Shown: positions 3,246-27,216 of the stretch, one piece after another
Position numbering within the stretch: position 1 is the first letter of the stretch
Layout: every line of letters starts with the position of its first letter
NCBI GenBank assembly: GCA_963734545.1
Contig: CAVTHO010000004.1
Span: forward strand, 160,001 to 224,000
Source: an uncultured Spirochaetota bacterium
GTDB taxonomy: Bacteria; Spirochaetota; Spirochaetia; SZUA-6; Fen-1364
Length of the DNA: 64,000 nt
Direction: 5' to 3'
The notes under the pieces: model-generated
The model's database searches: none
What the model saw: the letters and a program-made list of their open reading frames with translations, nothing else
What the model was told of the DNA's origin: nothing
Position numbers and translations under genes: made by a program

Positions 3246-4372
3246 TCACTCCCAGCGCTCTTCGAATGCGGGATCCTTCGCCTTCGCTTCCGCAATCTTC
3301 TGTTTCCACAAGCCTTTCAGTCCCTTGTTGTTCCACAGAAGATCAACGGTTTCGTACTCCTTGAGCGGAGAGGCTTTCTTCAGATCGATGTCCAGCAGAT
3401 AGATCTCGATCTTTCCTTGTTTCAGCACTTCGAAATACAGCCCCTCCTGTCCCAGGTAATAGGAGAAGGACAACGCGGGCATGTGATCCGATTCGTCCAT
3501 GCCGTGCCACACGGAGTAGAGCGCGTCTTCCTTCAGGTCGTAGATGAGAACATTCCATCGCGACGGATTCCTTGGGACAGTGATTATTGGGTCATTCATT
3601 ATCGACTGGTAGAGAACGAGGAACACGAAGTTCTGGTCTACAACCGACTGGAGAGTTTTCACCTCAGCGACTATTGGGAGGTACGCCCCAGTGAAGGGCA
3701 GGATGAAATCTGTCAAGACCGACTTGTCGGACCTCGAGTAAACCCGGAGCTCCGTGTCACGCATAGCCCCCATGTAGGGCAACTTTGACTCTGTCGGTTG
3801 AAAACGCGATAACAAGATCAGATTTGCACCAGCATCAAGATCCTTGGGGTTCAGAGATGTAATAGACGTCCGGGTCTCTGCCTTCAGCTGAATACACCCA
3901 GCTTCGCTCCGTATCAATTCGCATGATCCCGTCATTGTGACTACGCAGATTCCTGTAGAAGCCAAATACCTTTTCTCGACGATATGTCCTGAAGTCCGTG
4001 ACCCTATCTGTCTTAACCGCCTTTGTCTTCTTGTCGTAGCGAAAAACCTCATACGAAGGTTCCTTGTTTCCACCACTCCCATAGTAGGGGTAGAAGTACA
4101 ACGACGACTCATCATCATTGGTGAGGCGTGGAAAGGAGTATCCTTGAATGTCCTCAAACCGGAAAGGACCCCTGTCGCTCAGCGGAATCGTCGTGATAGG
4201 CTTCGCCACAACCGCCTGCGCGAACAGCGTCTTTGGCATGTGAACGTCCGTGCGACCCTTTGAACACCTCTTCATACAGCGAACTCAGGTTGCCTCCCTG
4301 CGCGTTCGCCAACAGAATCGGGAGCATCAACAAGAACAGCACGATGATGGGCTGAGTTCTCCTGTTTGCCAT
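3246..4372 (-). CDS. Exported hypothetical protein (~375 aa, 2 frameshifts), putative immunity protein of the upstream giant protein
   Basis: GGGGAG RBS, and ATG 9 bp after the giant gene stop. Signal peptide MANRRTQPIIVLFLLMLPILLANA. Joins ORFs 4154-4372, 3835-4275 and 3246-4157 via shifts at ~4250 and ~3855. Aromatic- and beta-strand-rich, visibly lower GC. Immunity role is inferred from position. Confidence 0.6.
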
Positions 4373-4381
4373 TTGACTCCC

Positions 4382-7300
4382 CTATCGGCCACCAAGCAGT
4401 GATGTGTCCCACCAAGGCTTGATCCGACCGAAGTTGGTGCCGCCACCGTTGAACTGATTCCGCCACCCGCTGAAATACCTGTTGTCCAAAAGCCAGTTGG
4501 AGTAACTGTCATTCAGCACGGAGGCGCTTTGCCAATTCCCGAGACTATTCGCTCTTGGCCCCGCTTCGTAGAGTGTTCCGTCAACTTCTTTCTGCGGTGC
4601 ACTGTGGATCAGGAGGTTCTGACCTTGGTCGTCGACCCCATAGAATCCGATGTGCATGTTTCCAGGAGGGCCGAGGAATACCAGGTCCCCAACCTGCGGA
4701 GCCGCCACCGGGTCAATCCGCGTGTCGTAGGACGTCAGGTACACCCCGCTGGCCTGCTTTGCTCTCACTCGCTCTGCCCACGACTCAGGCAATCCATAGT
4801 CGAAGTCGGCAAGCAAGGCGTTCTGCATGGAGCCCGTTTCTCCTTTGAGCCTTGCTGCAAGCGCGTTGCTGTAATCCTTCGATGAGCTGTCGAGCGCCCG
4901 CTTGTTGATCATTCCGCGGTATGACTGCCCTTCCTCCAGGGCACCGGCGGCATATGCCACAAGGTCAACGTACCCCACGCAGTCCAGCGAGGGAACACTC
5001 CCGTTGGTATCCTTCCAGCGATATAGTTCTGCATTAGGTGCTTGTCCTTCTTGAGGGAACCATCCGGTCACCGCCTTGCCGTACCCACGTTCGACAGTGT
5101 TCGAGTTCGCCCAATATGAGGCACCCGGTGTCTTGCCCTCCTCCGATCCACTTCTATCGTAGTTGATATTCAGGTACTCGCCCGTGTAAGTCAGCGCCAC
5201 ATCATTAATCAGGTTCCCGAACGGATTGTCGTAGCGAGCACTTCCCTCACCGGAAGCGAGGTTCGCCAAGAACAGCGCGCCAGAAAGACCGTCGAATCCG
5301 TCGCTCCCCCGGAAAGCGTTTGTCGTGTACTGGAGCATATCGTGACTGTACATGCTGCCGGCGACCGAGTCCTTCGAGTCCTTCAATGCCTCCCTAAGCC
5401 CGTTCACCAAAGCGAAGGCGTCGCCGTAGTCCTTATTCGACAGAACACCCGAGGTAAACGTGCTTAACTTCTCGTTGCCTGCAAGAAGCGCGAACGACCC
5501 CTCACCATTCACCAGATAGCTCCACAACTTGTTGGATTCCTTGTTGATGCTCCCGATCGCTTGGTCGTTCTGCACTGCTGCCAGCTTCAATAGATCCATC
5601 TCCGCCGCGTGCTCGTATTGCCGTTGACCGACTGTCTTCCCTTCACTGGCGATCTGCGCTGACGCAATATAGCCGAACCCACCGGCCCCGAACTTCTGCA
5701 GCATCCCTGCGCTCCAGGCCATCCCGGTTTCCTCGTATCCCTTCCCTGTCACGCCGAATGCCTGCATCAGGTCCGCGTAGGCGCTGATGCCGCCCATCTT
5801 CGCCTCAAACTCCCCTTTCCCGCCAAGATGTACTCCCTCATGAGCGAACAATGACGCGACCTGCGCCGCCCCTTCGATGCCGCCTCCAAGAAGCTTCGCA
5901 TTTATGCCGATGCTGTTGCTGCCTTCGGCATATGCCAAAGCCTTCAAGTCCTGCTCGGTTATGCCTGCAGTAGAGGCATCATAGTAGCTGACATTCTTCT
6001 GCCCTGCCCAAATCGCCTTTGCAATCTCGTAGTTTCCGCTGTTTTGTGTGTACCCCATCATGTTGATCGCGTTCAGCGTCGAAATGCCCCGCTGGTCGCC
6101 GAACGCTGCACTCGCTTTCGCCCCTGTAATCTTCAGAGTATCCTTGAGCCCGCTCATGCTCGCCGCGCACTGGTTCCCAGGCTCACATTCGTCCCGTTGC
6201 TTCCGAAGTTCATCCCAAATCCGCGGCTACCTCCAAGGTGCATTTCCATCAGCCCGTAGCTCTTGCTGCCGCCGAAGTCGGCGAAGTTCATCACATTCAA
6301 CGTCGCCTCGTTAGTGATCCCATACTGGATCCCCGTCGAAGTCAGGCCACCGGCGAGGCTATTGAAGCTCTCGATGCTCTTTCTGTTGAATACTTTCCCG
6401 CTGAGGTCGACATCGTTTCCGTCGTAGAGGTTCCAGTTTCCAAGCCCAGTGTTTACCGCTGCACCGCCTGCAGCTCCCGCCACGCTCGCCCATGCTCCCG
6501 TTCCAAACGACCCCTGCATGAAGCTATTCGTGTCCCACCCCAGCTTGCCGTCAGTCCAGTTGAACGCGTTGATCGCGCTCGTTGCCGTGTTCGTCGTGAA
6601 CGTCTGCGCCCCCGCAAGCAGCGCTTTGCCCACTCGCCCCCTTGCCGAAGCTTCCCAGCGCTCCTGTCAGCCCTGTCTTTGCGAACCCCTCCCCGACGTT
6701 AAACCCGTTGAACACTCCCCCTATTGTACTGGTCACCGTAGCTGGTCAGGAAGCTCTTCCCGATATCTAGCCCCGCCTCTTCCCAGCTCTTGTACCCGTA
6801 GGCCACATCCAGCGCGTCAAAGAGCACCGTGCTCGATGTGCTGATCGCCGCAGCAGCAGCTATCCCCGCTATCCCCCCGATCCCTCCTGTAGCCACGGTG
6901 GCCACTATCCCCGCAGCTATCGTGCCCACACTCCTCAGGCTGGGCGCCTTGAACCAGCTTCCCGTGTCGTCCCACAGCGGCTTATCCCACCGAGGGGCCG
7001 CCATCTCCGTCCACCCGCGGCTCTCCCTCATCTCGTTCCAGATGAAGTCCCCCATCAGCCGCCCCAACTCCCCCTTGCCGCTGACGATGATGTTTCGCCT
7101 CTGCGACTTGTCGAAGTCAGGCTCATCCGTGAACTCGGGCGCGTACCCTATCCAGGCCCCAAACTCCCCTTCCCCCATCTCCTTGCTGATGTCCCGCTTC
7201 TCTGCCCTGAAGCTCACCACCAGCCCCTTGGCCTTCTTCTCCGCCTGGCTCAGCTCCTTGCCCTCTCCGAAGATCCTCTTCTGCGCTGAGCCCACCTCCT

Positions 7301-10300
7301 CCTGCGCCGCTCCCACCAGGTCCATCACTGCGCCCGCGTCCAGCCCGCTCAGTCGACTCTGGCTCAGGTCCACCTTCAACTGCAGCGCGGGCATCGCGTA
7401 CCACACGTACCCCCCGACGCGCAGATTCTCGCTCACGATGTCGAAGAACAAGCTCCGCATGATCGTCTCTCGCTCGTACACCCCTCCGCTCTTCGCGTAG
7501 CCCGCATCGCCAAAGGTGGTGTCCATGCTCGTCTCAAAGCCCTCGTTGGCCTGCTTCACGCTCTCCGCTAGCGCTTCCTTCGCATCCTCCACGCTCGCTC
7601 GGGCATCATCGGCCAGCCCTCGCGCTGCCAACGCCGACAGCTCGCTCCTGCTCTGCGCTACAAACCTCCTCGCCTCTGCCGCGATCCTCGCCCCCGAGGT
7701 GTCTACTGACAACCCCGCACGCGCCACCACCACTTCTCCTGACCCGATCCCTGCATTCATCCGCCTCAGCGCGCTCAGAGCCTCGGCGCTTCCCACCTCT
7801 CCCAGAAGCCCCTCCACAGCAACCGTGGCCTCTTTCGCGTCATAGCTCATCCCGCTCACCAGCAGCGTGCCCGCGTTCCGCGTGCTGTCCTCTGCGCTTG
7901 CTCCCACCTCAGACAGTATCGCCTCGTTGCCTGCCTGCGCCGCCTTCTCCCTCGTGGCCGCCACCCAGGCAAGCTTGCTCTCTCCCATGTTCAGGTAGGC
8001 CTGCCTCCACGCTTCACTCTTGTCCCCATACTCCTGCTGGAAGCCCTGCCTCCACTGCACAAGCGCCCGGCCCAGCTTCTCCTGGCTGCTCGCCCATGCG
8101 CTTGCTGCCTTGGCCCTCACCAGCCCCACCTGTGCGTACCACCCCTGCCGCCTGTCTCCAAGGTCCTGCACTGACTGGGCCCAGGACTGCTCGGACTCTG
8201 CGCCGCGCGCATCCAGGGCGCCCGCGTACGTGGAAAGCACTGACTGCGCGTACTTCTGCAGAGCCGCCATCCGGGCCTGGGTCTCCGCCGCGTTCAGGAG
8301 TACCCCGCCGGAGAATGAGGCCGCATCCAGCACATTGCTTGAAAGTTCGTGTTCCGCCCTGGCAACCCACTGGGCGTTCTTATAAGCCTGCGAGGCGGCT
8401 GACACAAACGCATCTTTGCCTTGCCGTGCCGGCAATGTACGCGTCGTAGGCGGCCCGATACTCCTGTTGGGCCGTTGCCACCCGGGTCCTCGCGCTGACC
8501 AGGGCGCTGCTGACCTTCTGCTCGGCAGCGGACGTGTCGAGGCCGGCAAACAGCGTCATCCTTGACAGGGCTTTGCTGAAGGAAGACTTGTCCTCAGGCT
8601 TCAGTTGTGCCCAACTTGCATCGAATTGGGCCAGGAGCTCCACGGGTATGTCGACCTTGTCCGCGGCAATTCCCTGACGCTCGCCGGCGACCTTCTTGTA
8701 CTGATCGATGAATGAGGTGAGAGAATCGAGAGATTCACCGTTGCTCCCCTGCAGCTCGGTGAGACGCGCCCAGGCAGCATTGTAGACCTTTGTCGGACTT
8801 ATCGTGTTCTGAACCTTGGCGCCATCATTCAGGCTTCTGAGGCTTGAGACCACGTTGCCTATCTCGTCCCTGATCCTTTCTGCGGCGTTTCTGTCGCTTC
8901 TACTGCCCATGATACCGGGCAAAGATGCCGTGATCTCTGGCAAGTCTCCTGTAGTGCTGATACCGCCTTTCAGCCAGGTCCCACATGCGGCTGAAAATTC
9001 TTTCAGATGTCCTTGACTCGAACTGGCTGGAGGTGTTGGTGCTCTTTCCTCCCGCCATCCGCATCGCAAAGTACAGCTCGAATGCTTCCTTTTCCTCAGC
9101 ATTCGCCATGACTGACTCGTAGCGCGCCTGATCGAGGGAAACAGCTTCGGCAATGTAGGCCTGCACGTCGCTGCTATGGTTTTCACCTGCTATCTCCAGA
9201 CGGAGCCACTTACCGGACGATCTGACGAAACTGTTGTTGCTGGCGTAGCCCGAGAGAAGGCCCCGTATGTCGGCGTCCACATTCGAATCGTATAGCCGTC
9301 TCTTCAGCCAATCCGCCGCGAAGCCCCACCTGTTGATGAGACTATCCATTCCGCCAGACTGCGCGGCAAGCTTTTCCACTGAAGCGACCCACGAGCTGAG
9401 CTTGAAGCTCGAAAGAGCTCCTCTCCGCTCCGTCCTGAAGCGCCTGCTCCTTCTGGAAAAAATCCCTGACTTCCTGGACAGATTCCTCGCTTCCCTGGGA
9501 CGTCAGAACAAACGAGTCATCGATGTCCAGCACGAGCTTTCCATTTCGCACCTTGAGGTAGCTCGACCATGAGCTGGCCCGGTCCGAGGCATCGAAATCT
9601 TTCAAGCCGCCAAGGGCTGCATCGCGGTCTAGAACTTCGCCGCGCGTTTTCTGGAGAGCTTCGTAGAGATCTTGAGCCTTCTTGGCCTGCGCCTCTGTGG
9701 CCAGCGCAAGATCACCGGTCACGCGCTCGAGCCGCATAAACGCGGTGTACTTCTGCTTCCATGCGTCGTACGCTGCCAGAGTGGCGGCGTCTTCAATCGG
9801 CCGTTCCGCTACAGCCTCTGCCCCGAAGAGCCCGGTCAGCGCGTCCTTTGCCGCAGTTGCGCGGACGAGCTGGTCAGCAGCTTCTTTCTGGCGCTCGGCA
9901 GGGCTCTGGTAGTCCGCGGCCACCTCACCGCTTGCTGCCAGATAGCCGCTTGCCGCCCAGTCCTGGATTTCCTCCCGTGCGCGCAGATCGAACCGGGCCT
10001 GTTCCAGGCTGTCGCTGGCGTCCTGCAGATCCGCCAGGAGCGCATTGATGATTGTCCAATGTCTTCGAACTCCGCCAGGGCAGTGTCCACGGCAGACTGC
10101 CCGGCCTGCACGTGCCCGCGGAGACCTTCCATGGCAGCCTGGAGAGATTCGAGCTGCGCCTGGCGTTCCTCGGCCCCGAGGTCCAGGAATGCAAGAGCCT
10201 GGCCCGAACGGCTGATGTCTTCCTTGAGACTGTCAATCCTTGCAAGGGCGGATCGAAAGCTCGCCTCGTCTGCGTCCAATGAAGAGACGGCGGCCGCAGG

Positions 10301-13300
10301 GAGGTCGCTCTCCTGAGCGGTGCCTGCAACGAGAGCAGAGAGGTAATCATGGAACCGGGCGACGGCCCCGGCATCACCGCTGTCAACTGAAAGCTGCGCG
10401 GTAAAGGCCTCTTCGGCGCGTGCAAGGCTGTTGAACGCCTCCAGAACCAGGTTGTCCTTTGAACCGGCAGCGCTTCGCGCGTAGATTGCCTCATCCCGAG
10501 TCTCAGCGCTGGCCGCGGTCGTGATTGTCACCCCCGGGCCCACATTCGAGTCACTCAAGTAGTCGCGCCAGGATGCGGGGGCATCCGTCTGGCCGGCGAC
10601 GTACGTCCAATAGGCTGCCTCTGCCCGATCCACCGCGACTTCATGAGAAAGAGACATCGCCTTTTCGGCTATCTCGCGCATGGACACGGACGCTGCCCCG
10701 TCCAGTGGAGCGGCTGCGACGGCCTTGTACCAATCGAGGTAGGTGTCCGTTGAAATGGCCGCAAAGAACGCGTCGTCCCACTGATCGATCGAGATGGCCC
10801 CGATGAGGCTGCACTTTGCTGCAGCATCGTCAGGATCGCCTCCTGCAACTCTTTCCGCATAGGCCTCGGGACTGCCGTCGAACGCCCCCAGATAGCCGCG
10901 AGCCTTCATCATGACGTCCTTGAACCCGCCTACCCTTGTCAGGCTCGCAGGGCTGGTTGAGAGAAAGCTCATGAGCTCGTCAGGGACCGGTAGCCCCTGG
11001 GAGAGCAGCATCTTGGCGCGATACTCTGCCGCAGAGGCGCCTGCTCCTGCGAACGCTTCTGCCTCCAGGTCGAAGCTCTTTCCCGCGTACGAGGACACAT
11101 CCCCTGCATGGCCCAGGCCTGCGCGATCGCGCAGGAATACGGCAAGTGCGCTCCGCTCGGAATCGTCCGCGCCTTGCGCCTGAGCGGCAAGGGTCAGGGC
11201 TATGGCGCGCTCGTACACAGCGCCTGGTTCACCCAGGCTTCTGACGGCGGCAAGGCGCGCATCGAAGGTGTCTCCCATGAGGACCCGTCTGAAGAGACTC
11301 TCCTTGTCCTCATATCCAGATGCGAGTCCCTCGCAAAGCGCAATGATTTCCTGCGGTGCCGGATGGTCTGCGTCGAAGCTCTCGAGGTACGTGCTCAGGG
11401 CTGCTTCCAGATCCTCCTGAGTGGACCAATTGTGAGCAGCCACCTCCTCCCAAAGTCTCATTGCTTCCGGCGCAATCGAGCTCGCGGAGATGCCCGAAAC
11501 GGTCTGCGCCACGCTCACCGTGTTCCACGTTCTATAAGCGGAGATGCGCTGGCCTTCCACTGAAGCTCCGTAATTGGTGGCAAGAAGCTCCGCGGCCCTG
11601 GCAGCTATGCTGTCTGCCAGGCTGGCAGGCATGCCCGCGGCAAGCCCGGCTGCTATCGTGCGCAGCGGCCTGCCGGGATCGGCAATGAATTGTTTTGCCG
11701 CTTCCGCGGCACCCGCGTTGACGATCAGATCCTTTGCGGCGTTCGTGAATGGCGATGACGCACCGGGCCGGGCATACAGCTCCACCAGTGAAGCGAACCT
11801 GTCCATGCCCTGCAGGCCCTGGGTAATGCGATCAAAGTCGGCCAGGGTAGCGGCAGCTTGTGAAGCGGACGCCTCCGCCGCCGCGGCCCTGTCTGCTGCC
11901 CCGGCCAGGGAGCCCCTGCGGACAGCATCAGCGGCAGCGTACCGGGAGAGAGCTTCGCAGTATTCGCTCACACGGTCCTCGAGCCAGCGGGGCCCGTCCG
12001 CTGTCGCGGCCCGCAGCGCGCCTCCCAGTTCGGCAACGAATCGACCAGCGGCCTGGCTATCCAGGATGGAAGCAGCCGCCGCCACGTCTTCTGCAGAAGA
12101 CAACGAAGCGTTCTCCGGCACGCGCAGTCCCCTGTCCGTGAATACTTTCTTCACCGCATCCAGGGATTCGGACTCTCTCTCCGCGATCAACGCCGTGCTG
12201 GTGCCTGCGGCATGGCTCCATGCCGCCTGAAGACGTCGGGCGCGCTCCGCCTCCCTGTACTGGGGCAAGCAGAACGCGAGGGTGAGGTCTCCTGCCTGGG
12301 TATCCACGAATGTGCCCGTGCCGCCTGCAAATGCCTGGATCCACGCGTCTGTGCTCGTCAGCGCGCGGAGTCGGGCCAAGCCCGTTGCGGTGTCCGCTGC
12401 GCTGTCCAGCGCACTGAGCAGCGCATCCAACGCACCTGCGCGATGGAGTGCTTCAGCCTGATCCAGACCCGGTTGCGCTGATTTTGCCAGCATGACAGCG
12501 TCCTGGTCGGAAGGGCTGCCATTCCCTGCCATCTCGAGCCAGGCCTGCAGTCCTCGTTTCTCAGCCCTTGCGCGCGCAGCTACCAGGGCCAGCGCAGCCG
12601 TGGGCATTGTCGGCAGACAATCGGTCCGCCAAGGATCCTTCGCTCCGCGTGCCTCCTGATTCGTTGTACCAGCTTTCCGCATCCGTGGCGCCGCTGGCCC
12701 GCACTTCAGCGAGCCGTTCCTGGTATGCGGCATCTGCCCGCACGTTGAGCAGGCCAAGGTAATTGAGAAGCTTCGCTCCCGCGGTTGCCTTTGCGTCCCC
12801 CACGGTTGCGTCGCGCCAGGCGGCAAAAAGGGCTGATACGGCCGCGTAGTCGGGCGCATCGATCGGCACGCCAAGCTCGTCAATGGATGAGGGAATCCGA
12901 TCCACGAAACCCGGCACCCGGATTCGCTCAGCCGCGCTCTTCAGGTCTGCAAGCGGGGCAACCCCGGACTCTGGATCGCCCTTGACCAGGACCGCGGCGC
13001 TCTGCCAGGCACCGTCGACTGCAAGATCAAAGCCGTGCAGCCTCGCTGCGGTGAAGTAGGCTGTGCTCGCTTCGGTGAGCCAGGTGTCGGATCCGGACAT
13101 CCCGCTCGCGTCCAGCAGGTCCTTGTACTTCTGCTCGATCTGCCCCTTATAGAAATCCACTGTCCCGCTCTGCGTAGAGACGAGCGCGTCCACATATTCC
13201 TGGCGAGCCTGCTCATAGTCGGCAGAGGCCTCGTCAGCGGCAGCCTGGGCCGCCTGAAGGGCCTGGCGCGCAGCGGCCAGTCCCGCGCCTCCATCCTGCA

Positions 13301-15436
13301 GGCCCTTCACTGCTGCTTGATATTCATCCAGCCGCGTCTCATAGACGGTCTTGGCCGCGTTGTACTTCTTCGTCCCCTGTGTCGGCAGTCTCACGGCCGC
13401 TCGAGATGTCCTGGGCATATGCGACGACCGAGTCGGCAATGGCTTTCCTCTGTTTCCAGTAGTCCTCTATGGCCTTGGCACGGAGAAGCTCGAGCTGATA
13501 CTCGTCAAGGTATGCGACACCCGGAGTCGGCGTCCGTCTTCAAGACATCCCTGAGGTCAGCTATCTGCGATCCAAAAGCGCTCCCCAGGGCGTCCTCGAG
13601 TCCCTCCTTGGCCGTGGCAGCCTGCGCGGTGTACGTGTCGATCATGTTGAGCCAATCGCCCATCCGGCTCATGCGCTCCCAGGCAGTCTGGACCGCGTCT
13701 GCCTGGGAAGAGTTGCCGTCCGTCTGCTTCAGGAAGCTCTCATATGTGGCAAGCGCCAGGTTCAGGGCAGAGTTCTCTCCCTGAACCGGCCCGCTGGCAT
13801 TGACCACACGCATCTTGTTGTGGACAGGCACTCGCTGCGCAATCAGATTGCTCAGGCTTTGAATCTGCAGATTCTAGGAGGCGATCTTTGCGGCCGGCTC
13901 CTTGATGAGCTGTGCGACCAAATATGGCGAGTTTGGATATGCCTTTTTGATACGCACGATATCGAATTCGAGGTCCGCAATTTCCGCTTGATAGTAAGAC
14001 CACGCCTGGGTATATGCGCTTATCTGGGAAGACAGCGTGTTGACGTATCCTGCCCACGTCTGCGTGCGCCAGGCGGTCAGGGCCGGCACAGCGTCCTTGG
14101 AGAAAACCAGGTATTCGCCGTTTCCGTCCCTTATGTTGAGCTTCTGTATCACCTCCTGGCCCGAGGCCACGGCAGTGGAGATGACCTGGAGGGATTGCGC
14201 GTACATGTCGACAAGCGCGCCCACCCTCTCCTGCATGCCGGCCAGCCGCTCGTTTCGTTCGTTCTGGAACTCATTCCGGGCAGTATTGATTGCAGCGGCA
14301 AGCTGGTTCTGTTCGCCCTCCCACTTTGCCTTGCCGGATTGAAGGAGTGTATCGACCTTCTGCTCCCATGCCCGGCGTTCTGTGGAGAGCCGCGCGAATG
14401 CCGCGGACCACGCTGCCTCTCCCTCTTTGTAGGACTTCCCCGCGTCCCGCTCCCACTCCATGCGGCTGGTGAGGAACTTCTCCTCTGCCGCGTCCCACTT
14501 GGAGAGCCCTTTCTCGAACGCCGCCTTGAAGCTCTCAAGCCACTGCTGCACGTCTATCGAAGGAACGCTGGAATCCACCGAGTCGGGACTCAGCGCCAAT
14601 CCGGATCTGATCTGCTCGATTCCCTCCTCGGTCTGGGCCCGGGTCTCCTTCACAATCTGGTCGGCAACGGCATCCGCGGTCGTTGACTCGCTCTTCTTGC
14701 GCAGCGAGTATTGATCATAGAGCCGCCGCGCCGTCAGGGACAGCTCGCCCTGGAGCGCCACCCTCTCCATCTCACGCCGCAGGCCTGCCTCGCGGCTGCT
14801 CTTGTACTCCCCATACCTGGCAAGCGCTTCGGGACCCAGAAGGCCGCCCAGCTCGGGCGCAAAAGCAGCGTCCACCCTTGATTCCCACGCGGCAAGGACC
14901 TCGTCCGTGGCAGAGGCCACCCGGGCCTTCCAGCCTTCCCTGTCCGCCTCCACCCCGGTTGCCCCGTGCAGGACCGGGTCACCGCTCTCATCGAGGACGA
15001 TGTTTCCCGCTTCATCAGTCGTGTACAGGTACTGCAGGTCTGCCTCGGTGATGGCCCGCAGCACTGCTTCGCTTCCCAGGGAGCCCTGTCGATCGAAGAA
15101 GCGTCTGGTCAGCCACGCCTCGTAGCGCTGCTCTGTCTGCGCGCCCACCCAATCGGAAAGTTGCGCCCTGGCCCGGGCAATCTGGTCGGGATCGGTGTAG
15201 AGATCCGAGGCCTCGCGCTCCCAGAGAGAGACCGCGGCCTCGGCTCCGAAAAGTGCTACTCTTTCCCAGGCAGAGCTTTCACGCTCCAGGTCTGCCCGGT
15301 TGTAGTAGACTTCCAGCGTTTCTTTCTTGAAGCCCTTGATGCTGCCGGGCAGCTCCTGCCCCGCCAACGCAGCGGTGGTCAACAGGGCGAATATGCAGGC
15401 GATGAGGTATTTCCATGAAAGGTGGAATGCCTTCAT
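4382..15436 (-). CDS. Giant (~3,700 aa) secreted alanine-rich helical protein with a hydrophobic Gly/Ala segment, HExxH motif and C-terminal NlpC/P60 domain; putative polymorphic toxin, interrupted by ~10 frameshifts and one in-frame TAG
   Basis: GGAGGAGAGG RBS then MKAFHLSWKYLIACIFALLTTAALAG (signal peptide) at 15436. Consecutive minus-strand ORFs 13874-15436, 13505-13831, 12561-13439, 9836-12883, 9342-9923, 8900-9379, 8380-9186, 6699-8549, 6551-6736, 6154-6633 and 4382-6157 join into one sensible reading. Motifs HEGVH (~5835) and LDCVGYV...GDLVFL...HIGFY...IHS (~4600-4990). Confidence 0.72.
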
Positions 15437-15506: not shown

Positions 15507-18503
15507 TCAAGTTGCTGCCTCCGCAGGCTTTCTCCCACGCCGCCGGGCTCCACTTGCCGCCAGGCCGATCAGCGCGGGGACAAGAAGAACGGTTGCCGCA
15601 TAGGAGCCGGCAATACCCCAGATGATCACGAATGCAAGGGACCGCATGAACGCTGCCCCTGCTCCGGCTGCAAACAGCAGGGGCAGATGGCCCAGAACCG
15701 TGGCCCCCGAGGTTGCCGTCAGTGCAGACAGTCGGGAGAGCACTGCGTCTGCCACGGCACGGGGCCCGCGGCCCCGGCGGGAGCGATAGGCGTCCACGAT
15801 AAGGATGGAGTTGTTGACCGCCATTCCGCTCAGCACAATCAGGCCGATGAGCACCGGCACGACAAGGCGCTGCCCCGTGACGCGCATGATTATCAAGGGC
15901 AGGGTAACGGAGGCGGGCAGGACCGCCAGGATGACCAGGGGCCAGAGAAACGATTCGGTGAGAACGCCGAGCACGAGGTAGATGAGCAGAATGCAGAGCG
16001 CGAAGGTCAGCCAGAGGCTTCGAAACCGTTCCGCCTGCTCGACCAGGTCCCTGCCGACGTCAAACGCATAGCCCGAAGCAAGGGTGAAGGAACCGAGCGC
16101 GGCCTCCACGCTTCGCACGATTCCCCTGATGTCACCCGCTTCCACGTGGGCGGTGAGGTACACCGCCCTCTGCCGGTTGAGCCGGTAGAGCTTTCCCCCT
16201 TCGCGCACAACGTCGAATTGCCCCGTGAACTCGACCGGCACGGACCGTGAGTTGCCGACCGATACCGGAATGCCCCCGAGGTCTTTCGGCGACTGCTGCG
16301 CCCGCCTTGTTCCCATGACACGCAGATCGATCTCCCGATCTCCGCCCATCCACTTCAACGCAACCGGGCCGTACAGGTGCCAGCGGAGAGTGCCGGCCAC
16401 AGCCTCTGCAGTGGTCCCTGCCATCGCGGCGCGCTGCGGGTCCACCTTGAATACCCAGGAGTCTGCCGGCTCCTTGAAATTGAGAACCACCTCCCGGATC
16501 TTTTCTCCGCCGCCCAGGATCTGTGCAGCCTGCGCCGCATAGGTCTTGAGCGCCGCATCGTCATCCCCGGTGATCGCGATTTCAAGCGCCCGCTCTGTAG
16601 CGCCAGCTCCCTCCGGCAGATAGGCAAAGCCGCCGGGAATGTTGCGTCCCTCCTCCCTGATGATGCCGGACAGTTTTTCCCTGGGCAGAAGGGAGGAATT
16701 GAACCCCACCTCGACCTCCGCGCTTCCCCGTCGGGCCGTGCTCTGCACAACGGTGACTCCGGGGACCTTCCGCAGTCTTGCGATGAAGGAAGCGGTGCGT
16801 GAGTCCACGGCTTCGATGGAGGCGCCGCTTTCGCATTCGACATGAACCGGCACGCTGTCTGTCTGCGGCGGAGGCTCCAGGTCGATTCCTATGCTGGCAA
16901 CGGCCCAGATGCCGATGACGGCAAGCGCGGCACCTCCTGCAAGAGGCCAGGTAATCCGTGAGCTGCAGGCCGTCACGATCCGCTCCGCAAACGCCTGCGC
17001 CAGACCGCCCGCCTTGGCCATGGCCCTGTTCACCGGCCCGGGCGGCCGTGGTTTCGCGCGCCGGGCCGATCTCAGGGCCACAACATAAGGCGGAATGAAG
17101 AGACAGGACAGCAGGAACGAGATGGCCACGAGCATTGCCAGCGCAAAGGAGACCTTGCGGATTCCGCCGCCTCCGAAATCCAGCGTCATCAGGGGTATGA
17201 GCACAATGAGGGCTGTCACAGTGGAAGAGAGGAGGGCCGGGATGATGCGTTCGGCTTCCGCAAAGTACTTTTCCCTGCCCGCACCGGGCGTTGCCCGGCC
17301 CGCGATGATGATCCCCGTGTCGATCATGGTGCCGATGCCGATGGCGAGCCCGGACAAAACATACGTGTCCATGCTGAAGCCTGCGGCAGAGACCGCTGCA
17401 GCGCTCGCAAGGCCGATGACCGGAATCGACACGGAGATGGCGATGACCCGCCGGGCTCCGGAAATGAACAGCGGGAGGGTGACCGCGGACACCAGGACCG
17501 CAAATGCAATGGCCTCCAGGATGCTCCTGAGGGACTTCTCCAGATCTGCACCTGCGTCCAGAATGACGCCGAACTCCAGTCCCCTTCCCTCCCAGACGCC
17601 GAGCTCGGTCCTGATGGCCCGGGACAGCTCGATGAGGTTCGCGCCACCGGAGCTCTTCACGGCCAGAACGGCGTTTTCTGTACCGTTGACCCGGCTTATC
17701 TCGTCATGCTCTCGCGGTGCATAGTCCACGGCTGCAATGGAACCCAGGGCCAGGCTCGTGCCTGCCACGGGCAGCCGCAGACCCCGGAGCCCTTCGAGAT
17801 CTCCGAGGCGTCCGGAGAGCACGACAGCCAATTCGCTCCCCTCGGACCGGACAAGACCGAGCGGCGCCAGGAGCTCGTTGGATTGAATGGCCCGGGCAAC
17901 CATTGCCGCATCCAGTCCCGCGCGGGAAGCGCGCTGCTCGTCCAGAATGACATGAATCTCCCGGGGCGCCCCTCCTCCCACCTCCACTTCACCTGCCCCG
18001 TCGATCTTTTCCAGTGAAGGCTTCAGCTCCTTCTCCAGCATGGTGGCAAGGTCGGTCACGGACATGGAGGGGGACCGGGCGGATGCGATGAAGATCGGAC
18101 GGCCCTCTTCCCCGGAGGACAGAATTCGCGGGCGCTGCACGGAGCCCGGGAGCTGGCTGTACACCCGGTCCACGGAGTCCCTGAGCTGCAGGTAGGTTTC
18201 TCTTTCAGGGGTGCCGGGCTGCATGAAGACGGTGACACGCGCCGATCCGTAGTCGGAGAGGGAGCGCAGGGTCTTCAGACCGGGCAGGGAGCCCAGCGCG
18301 TCCTCCAGCGGCCGGGTGATGGTGCGCTCGATTTCCCGCGCATCCACGCCGAAGTGCTCCACGATGACCGAGTACGCTGCGCCGCCTTCTCCTCCTGAAG
18401 GACCCAGGCGGGCACCCGCCACAACGGCTCCTGACACGATCAGCACAATGAGCAGGCAGGTTGCCGAAGCCACGGGCTTGCGGTACAGGCTAGCGATCCC
18501 CAC
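15507..18503 (-). CDS. RND efflux permease (AcrB/AcrD/AcrF family), divergent second subunit
   Basis: EIERTITRPLEDAL, GAGEVEVGGG, SRVNG, GMAVNNSILIVD and two TM bundles. Likely GTG start at 18503 overlapping the end of the upstream RND gene. Confidence 0.88.
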   Translation of the reverse strand: MGIASLYRKPVASATCLLIVLIVSGAVVAGARLGPSGGEGGAAYSVIVEHFGVDAREIERTITRPLEDALGSLPGLKTLRSLSDYGSARVTVFMQPGTPERETYLQLRDSVDRVYSQLPGSVQRPRILSSGEEGRPIFIASARSPSMSVTDLATMLEKELKPSLEKIDGAGEVEVGGGAPREIHVILDEQRASRAGLDAAMVARAIQSNELLAPLGLVRSEGSELAVVLSGRLGDLEGLRGLRLPVAGTSLALGSIAAVDYAPREHDEISRVNGTENAVLAVKSSGGANLIELSRAIRTELGVWEGRGLEFGVILDAGADLEKSLRSILEAIAFAVLVSAVTLPLFISGARRVIAISVSIPVIGLASAAAVSAAGFSMDTYVLSGLAIGIGTMIDTGIIIAGRATPGAGREKYFAEAERIIPALLSSTVTALIVLIPLMTLDFGGGGIRKVSFALAMLVAISFLLSCLFIPPYVVALRSARRAKPRPPGPVNRAMAKAGGLAQAFAERIVTACSSRITWPLAGGAALAVIGIWAVASIGIDLEPPPQTDSVPVHVECESGASIEAVDSRTASFIARLRKVPGVTVVQSTARRGSAEVEVGFNSSLLPREKLSGIIREEGRNIPGGFAYLPEGAGATERALEIAITGDDDAALKTYAAQAAQILGGGEKIREVVLNFKEPADSWVFKVDPQRAAMAGTTAEAVAGTLRWHLYGPVALKWMGGDREIDLRVMGTRRAQQSPKDLGGIPVSVGNSRSVPVEFTGQFDVVREGGKLYRLNRQRAVYLTAHVEAGDIRGIVRSVEAALGSFTLASGYAFDVGRDLVEQAERFRSLWLTFALCILLIYLVLGVLTESFLWPLVILAVLPASVTLPLIIMRVTGQRLVVPVLIGLIVLSGMAVNNSILIVDAYRSRRGRGPRAVADAVLSRLSALTATSGATVLGHLPLLFAAGAGAAFMRSLAFVIIWGIAGSYAATVLLVPALIGLAASGARRRGRKPAEAAT

Positions 18504-21500
18504 GGCGCCCCCTCCCGCGGAGATAGATGATGAACAGACGAGGCAGGACGAAAAGAGTGAGAATGGTGGATACGAACAGGCCGCCGATGATGGCCACGGC
18601 CATGCCGCTCTCTGCCGAGGTGTGCGACAGGTCGATTGCAATAGGCAGCAGGGAAAGCACGGTGATGAGCATGGTGATGAGGATGGGGCGCATCCTGTCT
18701 GAGGTGCCCTGGTAGACGGCAGCCACCATCGGGACTCCCGACTTTCTCCGGGCCGAGTAGGTTTCATAGAGGATGATGGAGTTGTTCACCGCGATGCCGA
18801 AAAGCACGATGATCCCCAGCGCGGAGTCGAAGCTGATCGGCTTGCCCGAAACGGCCAGCGCAAGGCTGATTCCTGAAAAGGACAGGGGAAGCGCGGTCAG
18901 GAGAAGGGCCGGAAGGAGGAATGACTCGAATTGCGCGCCCAGGACGAGGTACAGCAGGACGATGACCAGGGCAAAAGCGGCTAGCAGGGCGCTGATGTTC
19001 TCCGCAAGCACGGAACCCTCGACTGATCTCACCCACTCGAAACGCCTCTCGAGCCTGCCTATTTCTGCCGTCACGCCGTGGTCCAGCCCGGCCGCGGGCT
19101 CGACGGCCACAATGACCGCATCTGCCCTGTCCCGCCTGTAGAGTGCGGGCACGGAAGGCTCTGAGCGCATGCGGACCAGCTCGGACAGGCGCGCCTCGGA
19201 ACCGCCGGGCGTGCTCACGACGATTGCCGGGAGGTCCTCAGGTCGGGATGCCTGGCGGCGGTCCACGCGGACGCGCACGTCCAGGTCTCTTCCCTCGATG
19301 CTCATCCGTGACGGATAGCTTCCCGTGATCGCGTTTCGGACCGTCTCCGCAAGGTCCGCCAGGGAGAGACCCGCAACTGTCACGGCATCCCGATTCGGTA
19401 TGAGCCGCACTTCGGACCGCTCCCCCTCGGGCTGCAGATTGACCCGGGCAGACAGGTCCCCCGATGGACCGCCCGGCTTGAACCTGGCCGATATGGTGCG
19501 CGCCCTGGCCTGCGCCTCGGCTTGCGTGGACCCTTTCACGACCATGGCCCTGCCGCCCCTTCCCAATCCGAGAAGGGGTGTGATGATGGAACCGGGAAGG
19601 CTGACCTCCACGACCGCGGACTCGATGTGAAGAGAAGAGCGTATGGCGGACGCCACGGCTGCGGTGGACTGCATGCGTCCCCTGGCCAGGAGGACGCGCA
19701 CGTGGATGATCTCCCTGCGTTCTTCGGGGTCCGCGTAGTACTGGGCGTCCTCCGGCTCACCTCCTGCCCGTGCGTACACTCCCTGCACGCCGGGGACCGC
19801 GGCACACGCGCGCGCCGCATCCGTGGACACGGAGGCGGTGCGTTCCAGCTCCGCTCCATAGGGCATGGTGATGGTCACATCGATCTCGCCTGTGTCCTGG
19901 GCCGGCATGAAGTCGAATCCGAGCAGGGGCACGCAGAGCACGCCGAGAGCGGTCAGCAGGGCAACGGCGGTCACGATGGTCCAGGGTTTTCGCAGTGTCG
20001 ACATGAGGGACCGGCGGAACAGGTGATCCGACCATGCGCGAGCCCGCGGGGCCTTTCTTCGGGCAGCGCGCCGCTCCAGTAAAAGGAAGAGCACGGGCAT
20101 CAGGGTGATGGAGGTGAGGAAGGAGGCGATCTGCGCAAAGATCACGGACAGGGAAAGGTCGGTAAACAGCGGACCCAGCAAGCCCGGAAGAAAGATGATG
20201 GGCAGGAATACAACGGTCAAAGTCAGCGTGGAGCCCAGGCGTGAAGTGGCGAGCTCCAGCGTGTGACGCAGGACGCTGTCCGCGGTTGCCTTGCCGATGA
20301 CGTGCCGCTTCTGGAGATTTTCCAGGATGACAACGTTGTTGTCCACGATCATTCCGATAGCAAGGGCAAGACCGCCCAGGGACATGATGTTGACTGTCCT
20401 GCCGAACACCTGGAGGGCAAGAAGCGTCACGGTTATTGCGATGGGCAGGGACAGCATGAGCAGTGCCGAGGTCCGGAAGTCTCGAATGAACACGATCAGG
20501 ACAATGAACGCGATCAGGGAACCTGCGAGCGTGGACAGGGCCAGGTTGCGAAGAGAGGCGGCAATGAAGAGCGAGCCGTCCGAGACGATCAGGATGTCGA
20601 GGTCCTTCCCGTAGGAGGCGGCAAGCCGGGCAACCTCCTCCTTCAACCCGGCAGAAACCCTGATCGGGCTGGCGCCTTTTCTTTTCATGACGCTCAGCCC
20701 GACTGCCTCCGCGCCGTTGACCTGGAAGAACGAGAGCCTTTCCCGCTTGTCCAGGGAGATGGAGGCGATGTCGGAGAGCCGAAGTGCCGAACGTCCACCC
20801 ACGAACCGGAACTCACCAAGGGCGGCTGGGTCTGCGACCGTTCCTGAGGCTTTGACCAGGTATTCCAGGCCTCCTGCCGTGACCGTGCCCGTGGGGTAGT
20901 CATAGTTGTTCTTTGCCACCAGGGATGCCACGTCGTTCAGCGTCAGCCCTTTGGAGGCCATCTGGGACTGGTCCACGGAGACGACCACCTCCTCCACCGC
21001 CCCTCCTGCCAGCACCACGGAACCGACACCTTCCACCTGCTGCAGGCGTGTCTTGATCTCGCGCTCACCCAACCTGCGGGCAAATGCCAGGTCTCCTGAG
21101 CGCGGCCGGACCGCCACGATCGCAATGGGGCGCTCCCCTGCCTCGGCAGGGAGCACCTGGGGTTTGCCCGCATCCGACGGCAGGGAGGTATAGGCCACGT
21201 CGATGCCCTCACGCGTCCTCACCGAGGCGGATACCATGTCTTCTCCCCAGGAGAACTCCAACGTGATGATGGACAGGCTGTCACGCGACACGGAAGACAC
21301 GCGCTTCACGCCCTTGACTGATGCGAGCTGGTCCTCCAGTGGAATCGTGATGAGCGAGCGCACCTCTGAGGCAGGCAGACCGGGATAGCTTGTGGACACG
21401 GTGAGCTTGGGAATGGTGAGCTCGGGCAGGAGCTCCAGCCGCAGGTTCAGAGAGGCTGCCACGCCGAGAATCATGACGCCGGCAAATATCATGAGGGTTG

Positions 21501-21540: not shown

Positions 21541-21546
21541 GCGAGC

Positions 21547-25805: not shown

Positions 25806-25826
25806 TTCAAGGCGCCCCTTTCTTGT

Positions 25827-27206: not shown

Positions 27207-27216
27207 TGAGGTGCGG

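What the first reader, a model, noticed from the sequence alone, without database searches (positions are those of the whole stretch)
4382..15436. Eleven small ORFs are really one ~11 kb gene with polymorphic-toxin architecture
Seen: re-joined frames give signal peptide, then ~2,800 aa of Ala/Glu/Arg-rich helical stalk (e.g. YLDEYQLELLRAKAIEDYW at ~13460-13515, hidden between called ORFs, and ARFDLRAREEIQDWAASGYL at ~9940-10000), then WDKPLWDDTGSWFKAPSLR, a hydrophobic Gly/Ala segment, a Gly/Asn/Thr-rich region, an HExxH motif and an enzymatic tip. From memory it resembles uncharacterised giant proteins of Treponema and the Leptospira TIGR04388 family; this is unverified. Automated annotation would report only scattered hypotheticals.
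Basis: partly seen in the sequence, partly recalled or inferred. Interest (0 to 1): 0.85.

Follow-up and report, generated by a model that had tools for sequence, protein, structure and literature searches.

The report
Giant spirochaete gene split by errors
The eleven small reading frames are pieces of one very long gene for a giant exported spirochaete protein with a swappable cell-wall-cutting tip, and the breaks are most likely sequencing errors of this assembly rather than biology.

Summary
Observation confirmed. Window 15436..4382 (minus strand) is one gene of about 3,680 codons. It is cut by 10 frameshifts and one in-frame TAG. It is colinear with intact single ORFs in relatives (3,631 aa in a congener, 3,744 aa in P0003).

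The breaks are most likely assembly errors. Against a congener's orthologs, 24 of 101 well-conserved genes of this genome carry frameshifts (0.23/kb). 28 of those 33 frameshifts are +1-nt insertions, the bias also seen in the giant gene. dN/dS is about 0.2. A 98%-identical public contig lacks the extra base at one junction. The TAG is unresolved.

The protein belongs to a large unnamed Spirochaetota family (616 cluster representatives). Its order is: signal peptide, N-domain, Ala-rich helical stalk, 530-aa core, hydrophobic Gly-rich segments, pre-tip region, variable tip.
- Tips fall into 36 unrelated groups. Every recognised one is a peptidoglycan peptidase (M23, NlpC/P60, M15); here it is NlpC/P60-like.
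- Tip type co-varies with a tightly linked downstream exported protein.
- Tip and stalk phylogenies disagree.

So the polymorphic-toxin architecture is supported, but toxicity is untested. TIGR04388 membership is not supported, and HExxH is mostly HExxR in the family. A conserved OEP-MFP-Big5-Big5-RND-RND operon lies beside the gene in 8 genomes.

The parts
4382..15436 (-). Giant gene as a whole, about 3,680 codons including the stop at 4382-4384. It is read in 12 pieces.
   Evidence: Colinear tblastn to the intact 3,631-aa G002 ORF and to the intact 3,744-aa P0003. Frames listed.
15362..15436 (-). N-terminal signal-like peptide, MKAFHLSWKYLIACIFALLTTAALA. The cleavage site was judged by eye.
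   Evidence: Translation. Hydropathy peak at residues 6-24. Conserved in G002 and P0003. No signal-peptide predictor was available.
13874..13876 (-). In-frame TAG, aligned to Glu of G002, in a poorly conserved linker.
   Evidence: In-frame stops inside conserved sequence are rare elsewhere in this genome: 4 doubtful cases in 132.5 kb.
13517..13521 (-). Frameshift 1. The window has +1 nt, in the context GGGTGTC.
13366..13381 (-). Frameshift 2 (+1 nt), near a G4 run.
12562..12606 (-). Frameshift 3 (+1 nt), placed only to within this interval.
10046..10055 (-). Frameshift 4 (-1 nt or +2).
9394..9396 (-). Frameshift 5 (+1 nt).
8906..8922 (-). Frameshift 6 (+1 nt), an extra C in a CCC run. A 181-nt public contig (3 mismatches, 1 gap) lacks one base at 8917, which restores the frame.
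8402..8428 (-). Frameshift 7 (+1 nt).
6642..6741 (-). Frameshifts 8 and 9, at two G5 runs. A short third frame lies between them.
6163..6172 (-). Frameshift 10. An 87%-identical public contig lacks two bases, at 6168 and 6170.
6741..8402 (-). Conserved core of the family (profile of 533 positions). It ends in the WDKPLWDD...APSLR motif.
   Evidence: Alignment A3. The profile finds 616 cluster representatives at E<=1e-3 and 338 at E<=1e-30. AF2 model: mean pLDDT 63.5, confident (80-90) for about residues 260-500.
6831..6923 (-). Hydrophobic Gly/Ala-rich, membrane-like segment: TIAAGIVATVATGGIGGIAGIAAAAAISTSS.
   Evidence: Intact relatives show a second uncharged hydrophobic stretch of this kind about 130-140 aa further on.
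6163..6642 (-). Gly/Asn/Thr-rich region, part of the 300 aa after the core that are conserved across the family.
   Evidence: Composition. Homologous in 130 of 131 tails.
5828..5842 (-). HEGVH motif in the pre-tip region.
   Evidence: Invariant in the three aligned tails of this tip type. At the same place the family has HExxH in 21, HExxR in 98 and neither in 12 of 131 tails.
4580..4990 (-). NlpC/P60-like tip with conserved Cys (SLDCVGYV), His (HIGFY) and His (IHSAP).
   Evidence: Pfam PF00877 E=0.0025, 18.2 bits, below the 23-bit cut-off. C396, H505 and H521 are invariant in A1. Atlas feature search: best cluster is NlpC/P60, score 0.93.
3246..4372 (-). Downstream partner gene. It starts 10 nt after the giant gene's stop and has a signal-like N-terminus. 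It is broken here by 2 frameshifts (near 4250 and near 4170).
   Evidence: It is 56-59% identical to intact 377- and 384-aa genes that follow the same tip type at two loci of G008.
15507..27332 (-). Upstream co-directional operon: OEP 25827-27332, MFP/HlyD 24458-25777, Big_5 protein 23052-24477 (frameshift near 24220), Big_5 protein 21547-23079, RND 18490-21540, RND 15507-18767.
   Evidence: Pfam. Comparison with G002. The same set lies next to the giant gene in 7 other genomes.

Best explanation
SHOWN
- Window 15436..4382 (minus strand) is a single-copy gene for a protein of about 3,680 aa. It belongs to a large, unnamed family of giant Spirochaetota proteins.
- The domain order is: Sec-type signal peptide; conserved N-domain (about residues 35-440); a long Ala-rich, predicted-helical region; a conserved core of about 530 aa; hydrophobic Gly-rich segments and a Gly/Asn/Thr-rich region; a conserved pre-tip region carrying HExx[H/R]; and an interchangeable tip of about 300 aa.
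- In this window the tip is NlpC/P60-like.
- The gene is followed after 10 nt by a gene for an exported protein that is specific to this tip type.
- It is preceded by a conserved OEP-MFP-Big5-Big5-RND-RND operon.

INFERRED, about the breaks
The 10 frameshifts are consensus errors of this assembly, mostly spurious single-base insertions. The organism probably has an intact gene. The TAG may be real or may be an error.

INFERRED, about function
- The protein is exported by Sec.
- Its tip cuts peptidoglycan.
- Tip and downstream exported protein form a cognate enzyme-inhibitor (effector-immunity-like) pair that is exchanged as a cassette by recombination. This is polymorphic-toxin logic.
- The stalk, the hydrophobic segments and possibly the neighbouring RND/MFP/OEP machine serve to position or deliver the tip.
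- Whether the target wall is a competitor's or the cell's own is not settled. I favour a competitor's.
For: ONE GENE
- Colinear alignment to intact ORFs.
- Single copy in the genome, apart from a 541-bp duplicate.

ARTEFACT
- Against G002 orthologs at >=80% identity, 24 of 101 genes carry at least one frameshift: 33 frameshifts in 144.8 kb, 0.23/kb. In the wider set, 75 of 161 genes have some lesion.
- 28 of those 33 frameshifts are +1 nt in this genome. In the giant gene, 7 of 10 junctions are +1.
- Other stretches are as dense as the giant gene. On C8, eleven of the genes listed lie between about 169 and 182 kb, and nine of them carry 14 frameshifts in all.
- Neighbouring genes are hit too: the partner gene has 2 frameshifts, a Big_5 gene 1 and a 178-aa gene 1.
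- Of 5 RND genes, 1 has one frameshift and 1 is shattered.
- dN/dS against G002 is about 0.20 over 3,024 codons, and 0.11-0.31 in every piece.
- A public contig with 3 mismatches in 181 nt lacks the extra base at 8917. The same run holds 4 contigs at 99% or more.

FAMILY
- 616 cluster representatives at E<=1e-3, 490 at E<=1e-10 and 338 at E<=1e-30.
- 20 of 301 genomes sampled from the phylum and 11 of 126 genera have a match. These include single-contig, 99%-complete genomes with open frames of 2,905-3,568 aa.

VARIABLE TIP
- 36 groups among 132 tails.
- Pfam on 35 group representatives gave hits above cut-off for M23, M15_4 and NlpC/P60 (one each). Three weaker hits went to M23 (2) and NlpC/P60 (1). 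Every recognised domain is a peptidoglycan peptidase.
- The congener G002 has an unrelated M23 tip.
- The window's tip is 70% identical to that of P0003, although the stalks are only 38-61% identical, against 50-77% to G002.

PARTNER
- In 17 of 22 loci an ORF with a signal- or lipoprotein-like N-terminus (judged by eye) starts close to the giant gene's stop, within -28 to +69 nt in the 14 loci for which one search gives an offset.
- Tip group {G225, G235, G328}, spanning three genera and two families, has the same F5/8-type-C partner.
- The tip group of the window and two G008 loci shares its partner.
- The M23 loci G002 and G024 both have LRR partners.
- G280 and G235 are in the same genus but differ in both tip and partner.
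- LRR immunity proteins and Sec-dependent polymorphic toxins are described in PMC3482391 (passages read).
Against: AGAINST THE ARTEFACT READING
- Lesion density in the giant gene (about 0.9/kb) is about four times the genome mean.
- The TAG is a substitution, and conserved-context stops are rare elsewhere.
- Frameshift sites are not clearly enriched in homopolymers.
- No reads of the source sample could be laid. The frame-restoring contig could come from another strain.
- A duplicated gene fragment and an IS200-type transposase lie 5 kb away, as might be expected around a decaying locus.

AGAINST THE EFFECTOR READING
- No toxicity, immunity or export was tested.
- Only 7 of 36 tip groups resemble a known enzyme, and all are wall peptidases. 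None is a nuclease, deaminase or pore-former as in classical polymorphic toxins.
- With two membrane-like segments, the tip would sit in the producer's own periplasm.
- No route across the outer membrane is known.
- Some partners carry SH3b domains, which bind cell wall rather than inhibit enzymes.
- M23-tip loci do not all share a partner.
- 5 of 22 loci have no exported partner.
Confidence: 0.6

Rival explanations
1. True pseudogene. Some or all of the eleven lesions are real mutations, and this strain has lost the giant protein.
For: - Lesion density is about four times the genome-wide frameshift rate (0.9/kb against 0.23/kb).
- The TAG is a substitution, a kind of lesion that is rare in conserved genes of this genome.
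- A 541-bp duplicate of the core at 95.4% identity and an IS200/IS605-type transposase lie just downstream.
- The partner gene is broken too.
Against: - The giant gene shows the same +1-nt bias as the 33 frameshifts in conserved genes genome-wide.
- Other regions made of unrelated conserved genes are equally dense in frameshifts.
- dN/dS is about 0.2 in every piece, and there are no large deletions.
- A near-identical contig restores the frame at the one junction it covers.
Confidence: 0.15
2. Housekeeping envelope protein. The giant protein is a periplasmic scaffold that places a peptidoglycan hydrolase on the cell's own wall (growth, division, flagellar or pump insertion). The downstream protein regulates it, and it works together with the RND-type machine. 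It is not a weapon.
For: - All recognised tips are wall peptidases.
- There is usually one copy per genome.
- The neighbourhood with OEP-MFP-Big5-Big5-RND-RND is conserved in 8 genomes of at least 5 families.
- The predicted topology leaves both stalk and tip in the periplasm.
- Some partners have SH3b wall-binding domains.
Against: - Non-homologous tips replace each other between congeners, together with the partner gene.
- Tip and stalk phylogenies disagree.
- There are 36 tip groups among 132 tails.
- The family is patchy: found in 20 of 301 genomes sampled.
These patterns are typical of conflict systems, not of housekeeping enzymes.
Confidence: 0.22
3. Prophage tape-measure protein or virion-associated lysin. 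This would be a long helical ruler with membrane-inserting segments and a muralytic end.
For: - The architecture resembles tape-measure proteins that carry hydrophobic segments and M23 or NlpC/P60 ends (recalled knowledge).
- The best BFVD hit of the core model is a tape-measure protein, but at E=0.3 it is not significant.
- The N-domain matches phrog_22272, a phage family of unknown function with a 4,080-position profile, at E=6.6e-8.
Against: - It has an N-terminal signal peptide.
- No phage genes are nearby; the flanks are RND efflux genes and a restriction-modification pair.
- PHROGs gives no tape-measure family for 5 pieces or for the intact G002 protein.
- The chromosomal operon is conserved across families.
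Confidence: 0.02
4. Programmed recoding. The frame changes are read through by ribosomal frameshifting or by another genetic code.
For: None beyond the existence of the frame changes.
Against: - The breaks lie at unrelated sequences with no shared slippery motif.
- Relatives encode the same residues in one frame.
- Frameshifts of the same kind hit a quarter of conserved genes in this genome.
Confidence: 0.01

Closest known systems
Polymorphic toxin systems, Sec-dependent class (Zhang et al. 2012, PMC3482391; passages read)
   Same: - Signal peptide.
- Long conserved body.
- C-terminal domains exchanged between close relatives.
- A small gene directly downstream that changes with the tip.
- NlpC/P60 and LD-peptidase toxins and LRR immunity proteins are listed in that paper.
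   Different: - No RHS, filamentous-haemagglutinin or other known repeat, and no known pre-toxin or releasing peptidase domain (Pfam found none).
- The recognised tips are all wall peptidases.
- No orphan tip cassettes were seen.
- The system is linked to an RND-type operon, which is not among that paper's secretion routes.
Periplasm-acting peptidoglycan amidase and peptidase effectors with periplasmic immunity proteins (T6SS Tae/Tai-type pairs; recalled knowledge, not tested here)
   Same: A papain-fold or metallopeptidase wall hydrolase is paired with an exported neutralising protein encoded next to it.
   Different: Those effectors are small cargo of a contractile injection machine. No T6SS genes were seen in the flanks examined. 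Here the enzyme is the end of a protein of about 3,700 aa.
Phage tape-measure proteins with membrane-inserting segments and a muralytic C-terminus (for example T5 Pb2; recalled knowledge)
   Same: Long helical body, hydrophobic segments near the C-terminus, then a wall hydrolase.
   Different: This protein has a signal peptide, lies in a chromosomal non-phage context, is three times longer, and has no PHROGs tape-measure match.
TIGR04388 'Lepto_longest' (NCBIfam)
   Same: Very long spirochaete proteins of unknown function.
   Different: There is no HMM match. The 10 window pieces give nothing at E<=0.01. Two intact relatives give nothing at E<=0.1, and three more nothing at E<=0.01. The only hit in this genome is 13.3 bits, elsewhere, against a cut-off of 45.
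Giant adhesins retained in a TolC-like outer-membrane channel by a tripartite exporter (LapA-type type I secretion; recalled knowledge)
   Same: A giant protein is encoded next to a membrane-fusion protein and an outer-membrane factor.
   Different: The inner-membrane partners here are two RND pumps, not an ABC transporter. The giant protein has an N-terminal Sec signal rather than a C-terminal secretion signal. No RTX repeats were found.

Membership tests
TIGR04388 (Lepto_longest) | Match to the NCBIfam HMM above its 45-bit cut-off. | tested here: not met
   0 of 10 window pieces match. 0 of 5 intact relatives match. A whole-genome scan finds only 13.3 bits at another locus.
Polymorphic toxin system | N-terminal trafficking signal. 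| tested here: met
   A signal-like peptide is conserved in the window, G002, P0003 and the Treponema loci. It was judged by hydropathy and by eye, not with a dedicated predictor.
Polymorphic toxin system | Conserved body with unrelated C-terminal domains among close homologs. | tested here: met
   36 tip groups among 132 tails, with the preceding 300 aa homologous in 130 of 131. G000 and G002 are congeners with unrelated tips. Tip and stalk identities to P0003 are discordant.
Polymorphic toxin system | Cognate immunity gene directly downstream that co-varies with the toxin domain. | tested here: inconclusive
   Position and co-variation are met in part. 17 of 22 loci have a tightly linked exported ORF. 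Two tip groups share their partner, and both LRR partners follow M23 tips. Against this, M23 loci have several partner types, and protection was not tested.
Polymorphic toxin system | The C-terminal domain is toxic to cells lacking immunity. | not testable with these tools
   Only resemblance to wall peptidases is available.
Polymorphic toxin system | Orphan toxin/immunity cassettes downstream for recombination. | tested here: not met
   The only extra copy in the genome is a 541-bp duplicate of the core, not of a tip.
NlpC/P60 (PF00877) | HMM match above the 23-bit gathering score. | tested here: not met
   18.2 bits, E=0.0025. The related tail of P0012 scores 21.6 bits. The tail of another family member reaches 38.8 bits (protein 30).
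NlpC/P60 (PF00877) | Catalytic Cys and His, plus a third polar residue, in the usual order. | tested here: met
   C396, H505 and H521 are invariant in alignment A1 of 3 tails. C396 is also invariant in the 7-tail alignment A2; H505 and H521 are not listed as invariant there. Assigning these residues to the triad rests on recalled motif knowledge.
Zincin metallopeptidase (HExxH) | HExxH conserved across homologs, plus a matching family model. | tested here: not met
   The motif is conserved within this tip type. At the homologous place the family has HExxR in 98 of 131 tails and HExxH in 21 of 131. Only sub-threshold M48 and SprT hits were found.
Phage tape-measure protein | Match to tape-measure families and a tail-gene neighbourhood. 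| tested here: not met
   No PHROGs tape-measure hit in 6 proteins. The neighbours are efflux and restriction-modification genes.

The most novel reading that the evidence does not exclude
The giant protein, the two RND pumps, the membrane-fusion protein, the TolC-like outer-membrane factor and the two Big_5 proteins form one previously undescribed envelope-spanning apparatus of spirochaetes. This apparatus would present or deliver interchangeable peptidoglycan-cutting tips to neighbouring cells, each tip held in check at home by its own exported immunity protein. That would be a new secretion or contact-dependent antagonism route built on an RND-type tripartite machine.
Probability: 0.2. Interest if true: 0.85.

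Novelty: new variant of a known kind. Interest (0 to 1): 0.55.

Why it matters
For this window the practical lesson is ordinary. An error-prone assembly turned an 11-kb gene, and about a quarter of all conserved genes, into fragments. Annotation of this genome cannot be trusted without frameshift-aware methods.

The gene family behind it is more interesting.
- It comprises hundreds of clusters of 2,400-4,200-aa spirochaete proteins, including Treponema.
- It has no curated model. My five text searches found no paper on it.
- It carries swappable wall-cutting tips with tip-specific exported partners.
- It has a conserved link to an RND-type tripartite transporter.

If the tips are antibacterial, this would be the first described interbacterial weapon family specific to spirochaetes. 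It would also be a source of new peptidoglycan hydrolases and inhibitors, since 29 of 36 tip groups match no known domain.

Tried and rejected
- AF2 of the window's tail with a 7-row alignment failed (mean pLDDT 31.6), so no fold search was made on it.
- A profile of the tail against PDB sequences gave 0 hits at E<=1.
- AF2 of the core gave mean pLDDT 63.5. Foldseek against PDB gave nothing at E<=0.001. VIA-align wide gave only generic long coiled coils, Z<=8.1, on residues 31-226. BFVD gave nothing at E<=0.001.
- The Atlas feature search on the core was weak (best 0.83).
- Complex prediction on the G002 M23 tip with its LRR lipoprotein returned no verdict (score 0.00, mark 0.34, controls not run). 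This is neither support nor evidence against binding.
- No RNA holder was listed among the sequencing runs. Only two DNA runs held the stretch, with 0.05-0.06 of its words.
- The contigs laid bridged two junctions (8917, and 6168/6170). Whether any covered the TAG cannot be told from the rows shown.
- The search for related loci with the 9-row alignment A3 found no searchable stretch. The 5-row alignment A4 worked.
- The promoter and terminator scan of 2600-4500 found nothing.
- Considered and dropped: a conserved split into separate genes (breaks differ between relatives), and another genetic code (lesions are frameshifts, not a single stop type).
- Supplementary files of PMC3482391 were not seen. 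They may list spirochaete toxins that I could not check.

Full report
1. THE OBSERVATION

The region 4382-15436 holds a chain of minus-strand open frames that overlap or abut in different frames. Their translations read like one protein. A search of 41 related genomes with the 618-aa frame 8555-6702 found matches in 10 of them. One is a congener, G002, in which the match lies in an open frame of 3,636 aa. That locus has a single ORF of 3,631 aa.

Aligned back to the window by tblastn, the G002 protein gives 9 colinear pieces covering its residues 1-3079 at 50-77% identity. The pieces step through the three minus frames, and one stop lies inside the first piece. Reading the junctions and using a second intact relative, P0003 of 3,744 aa, I count ten frameshifts and one in-frame TAG (13876-13874). 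Two of the frameshifts lie between 6741 and 6642, at G5 runs.

2. WHY THE GENE IS IN PIECES

The same comparison showed breaks in neighbouring genes: a Big_5 gene (near 24220) and a 178-aa gene (near 27600). The gene just downstream of the giant gene has two more. Of five RND genes in the genome, one has a frameshift and one is shattered into six or more frames.

I then fetched 20 stretches of 20 kb from G002 and aligned their long ORFs to the whole genome.
- Of 161 orthologous genes, 75 had some lesion.
- Restricting to 101 genes at >=80% identity (144.8 kb), there were 33 frameshifts in 24 genes, or 0.23/kb. Genes at 94-96% identity carried two or three.
- 28 of the 33 are one extra base in this genome. 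In the giant gene, 7 of 10 junctions are +1.
- Some regions are as dense as the giant gene. On C8 between about 169 and 182 kb, nine of the eleven genes listed carry 14 frameshifts in all.
- dN/dS between the window and G002 is about 0.20 overall, and 0.11-0.31 in each piece. All pieces therefore evolved under selection.
- Of two public runs that hold small parts of the stretch, one has four contigs at 99% or more and a 181-nt contig (3 mismatches) that lacks one base at 8917. This is exactly the sixth frameshift, and it restores the frame.

Together this points to spurious insertions in the assembly's consensus. That is an inference; I could not see the source reads. Against it:
- The giant gene's density is about four times the mean.
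- Homopolymer enrichment at frameshift sites is weak.
- The TAG is a substitution of a kind that is rare in conserved genes here (4 doubtful cases in 132.5 kb).

I therefore keep a real pseudogene as a rival at about 0.15 and leave the TAG open.

3. THE FAMILY

Pfam and NCBIfam find almost nothing in the pieces. The one hit is a sub-threshold NlpC/P60 match in the last frame. In G002 the only domain is M23, at residues 3461-3566.

A word-based search with the G002 core region found 13 proteins of 2,434-4,139 aa. Where named, they are called hypothetical protein or MepM/NlpD-like, from Spirochaetaceae and Spirochaetales MAGs. A scan of species-representative genomes gave 8 loci whose record titles name uncultured Spirochaetaceae and Spirochaetota and two Treponema sp. 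MAGs. The Treponema loci hold single open frames of 2,962 and 2,972 aa.

A profile of the core (A3, 533 positions) run over 1.84 billion cluster representatives found 616 proteins at E<=1e-3, 490 at E<=1e-10 and 338 at E<=1e-30. In a sample of 301 genomes of the phylum it hit 20 genomes in 11 of 126 genera. These include single-contig, 99%-complete genomes with open frames of 2,905-3,568 aa.

4. ARCHITECTURE

Relatives share four conserved parts:
- the signal peptide;
- an N-domain, about residues 35-440;
- the core, about residues 2340-2900 of G002;
- the next 300 aa or so, with hydrophobic Gly-rich segments and a Gly/Asn/Thr-rich stretch.

The region between the N-domain and the core is Ala-rich and much less conserved. 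Tails after the core are mostly 600-830 aa long.

The first 300 aa after the core are homologous in 130 of 131 tails. The last 300 aa fall into 36 groups among 132 tails (sizes 24, 24, 17, 13, 9, and so on, with 22 singletons).

I scanned 35 group representatives with Pfam. Three passed the cut-offs: M23, Peptidase_M15_4 and NlpC/P60. Three more gave weaker hits to M23 (2) and NlpC/P60 (1). Two other sub-threshold hits (Phi6_P8, Beach) look spurious. The window's own group is NlpC/P60-like:
- sub-threshold Pfam match;
- conserved Cys and two His;
- best Atlas cluster is NlpC/P60, at 0.93.

So every tip that can be named is a peptidoglycan peptidase, and 29 of 36 groups are unknown.

At the homologous place the family mostly has HExxR (98 of 131 tails, against 21 with HExxH). 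It is therefore not a general zincin site.

5. SIGNS OF CASSETTE EXCHANGE

G000 and G002 are congeners with the same gene order. Their giant proteins align over residues 1-3079, but the last 550 aa or so are unrelated. Conversely, P0003 has a more distant stalk (38-61% identity) but a tip that is 70% identical over 595 aa.

The gene directly downstream changes with the tip.
- The window's tip group is followed at two G008 loci by a 377-384-aa signal-peptide protein. In the window its frameshifted ortholog starts 10 nt after the stop.
- G002 has an LRR lipoprotein instead.

Over 22 loci, 17 have such a tightly linked ORF with a signal- or lipoprotein-like N-terminus, judged by eye.
- Tip group {G225, G235, G328}, from three genera, shares a partner with an F5/8-type-C domain.
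- The M23 loci G002 and G024 both have LRR partners. Two other M23-group loci do not: G157 has an SH3b lipoprotein and G305 has none.
- G280 and G235, in one genus, differ in both tip and partner.
- Other partners are an RCC1 propeller and SH3b proteins.

This is the pattern described for polymorphic toxins and their immunity genes, LRR immunity proteins included (PMC3482391; passages read). It is not proof of toxicity.

Upstream and co-directional with the giant gene lie an outer-membrane factor, a membrane-fusion protein, two Big_5 proteins and two RND pumps. The same set is adjacent to the giant gene in 7 other genomes:
- G002, G008 (contig C20), G280 and G235, where it is co-directional;
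- G031 and G070, where it is divergent;
- G328, in part (MFP-Big5-Big5-giant).

That makes 8 of the 15 loci for which at least 2.9 kb upstream is held, spread over at least five families. In G157, G021, G024, G019, G026 and the two Treponema MAG loci it was not found in the sequence held. One Treponema locus has a different RND-like gene upstream.

Such conservation across families and orientations suggests a functional link. What the link is remains open.

7. MECHANISM, WITH ODDS

Shown:
- gene structure, family, variable tips, partner co-variation and operon linkage.

Inferred:
- Sec export.
- Two membrane-like segments would leave both stalk and tip on the periplasmic side.
- The tip cuts peptidoglycan.
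- The partner inhibits it.
- Tip and partner move as a cassette.

I put about 0.6 on the combined reading: an artefactually fragmented, intact-in-life effector-like protein with a cognate partner. Within that reading I favour an antibacterial role over a self-directed one. The housekeeping scaffold rival gets about 0.22, a real pseudogene about 0.15, and phage tape measure or recoding together under 0.05.

The boldest reading not excluded is that the RND tripartite machine and the giant protein form a new delivery apparatus (about 0.2).

8. WHAT LED NOWHERE

Structure prediction of the tail failed. The core model found no significant structural neighbour. PHROGs gave no tape-measure match; it gave only M23-type hits in G002 and one match of the N-domain to a 4,080-position phage family of unknown function. 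The complex prediction gave no verdict. Five text searches of the paper library found nothing on this family.

9. VERDICT

The fragmentation is an assembly artefact that affects the whole genome. TIGR04388 membership and a general HExxH enzyme are not supported. The family itself, its tip-partner cassettes and its RND-operon link appear undescribed and are worth following in relatives with clean genomes.

Noticed in passing
whole genome G000 (for example C8:169000-182000; C8:620905-624139; C5:442286-445296): The assembly carries about 0.23 frameshifts per kb in conserved genes, and 28 of 33 are one extra base. 24 of 101 genes at >=80% identity to a congener are broken, and one RND gene is shattered into six or more frames. 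Any gene call in this genome needs frameshift-aware checking.
   Followed up: yes
window 15507-27332: An operon of OEP, MFP, two Big_5 proteins and two RND pumps is conserved next to the giant gene in 8 genomes of at least five families. It appears in both co-directional and divergent arrangements.
   Followed up: partly
G000:C4:158803-159343 (L013 18803-19343), about 5 kb beyond the gene's end and outside the window: A 541-bp duplicate of the giant gene's core (window 7645-8184). It is 95.4% identical, has one gap and lies on the same strand. It ends abruptly and is not a tip cassette.
   Followed up: partly
window 1 to about 40, continuing into L013 19537-20000 (minus strand): An intact IS200/IS605-type transposase-like ORF (163-aa open frame) straddles the start of the window. 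It lies between the duplicate fragment and the restriction-modification genes. I identified it from its sequence by eye, not with a family search.
   Followed up: no
window 270-1865 (+) and 1780-2730 (+): A restriction-modification pair: an Eco57I/N6_Mtase-type methylase, and a BsuBI/PstI-family endonuclease with its HTH domain.
   Followed up: no
window 13877-15436 (-), residues 253-407: The N-domain matches phrog_22272 at E=6.6e-8. This is a phage-derived family of unknown function whose profile is 4,080 positions long. It may be a relative of this giant family that was called as phage.
   Followed up: no
L052 343-13884 (G154), and G130, G147 and G101: Open frames of up to 4,514-4,582 aa in genomes of about 4 Mb from another family of the phylum match only the first 150 or so positions of the core profile (E about 1e-11). 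The 4,514-aa frame of G154 (L052) was the only one tested against TIGR04388, and it does not match. These may be a distant sister family.
   Followed up: partly
L014 (G008:C20) 13502-15128; L017, L018, L020: Several relatives from few-contig assemblies also have their giant gene in 2-3 frames, with breaks at different places. This is probably the same kind of assembly error.
   Followed up: partly
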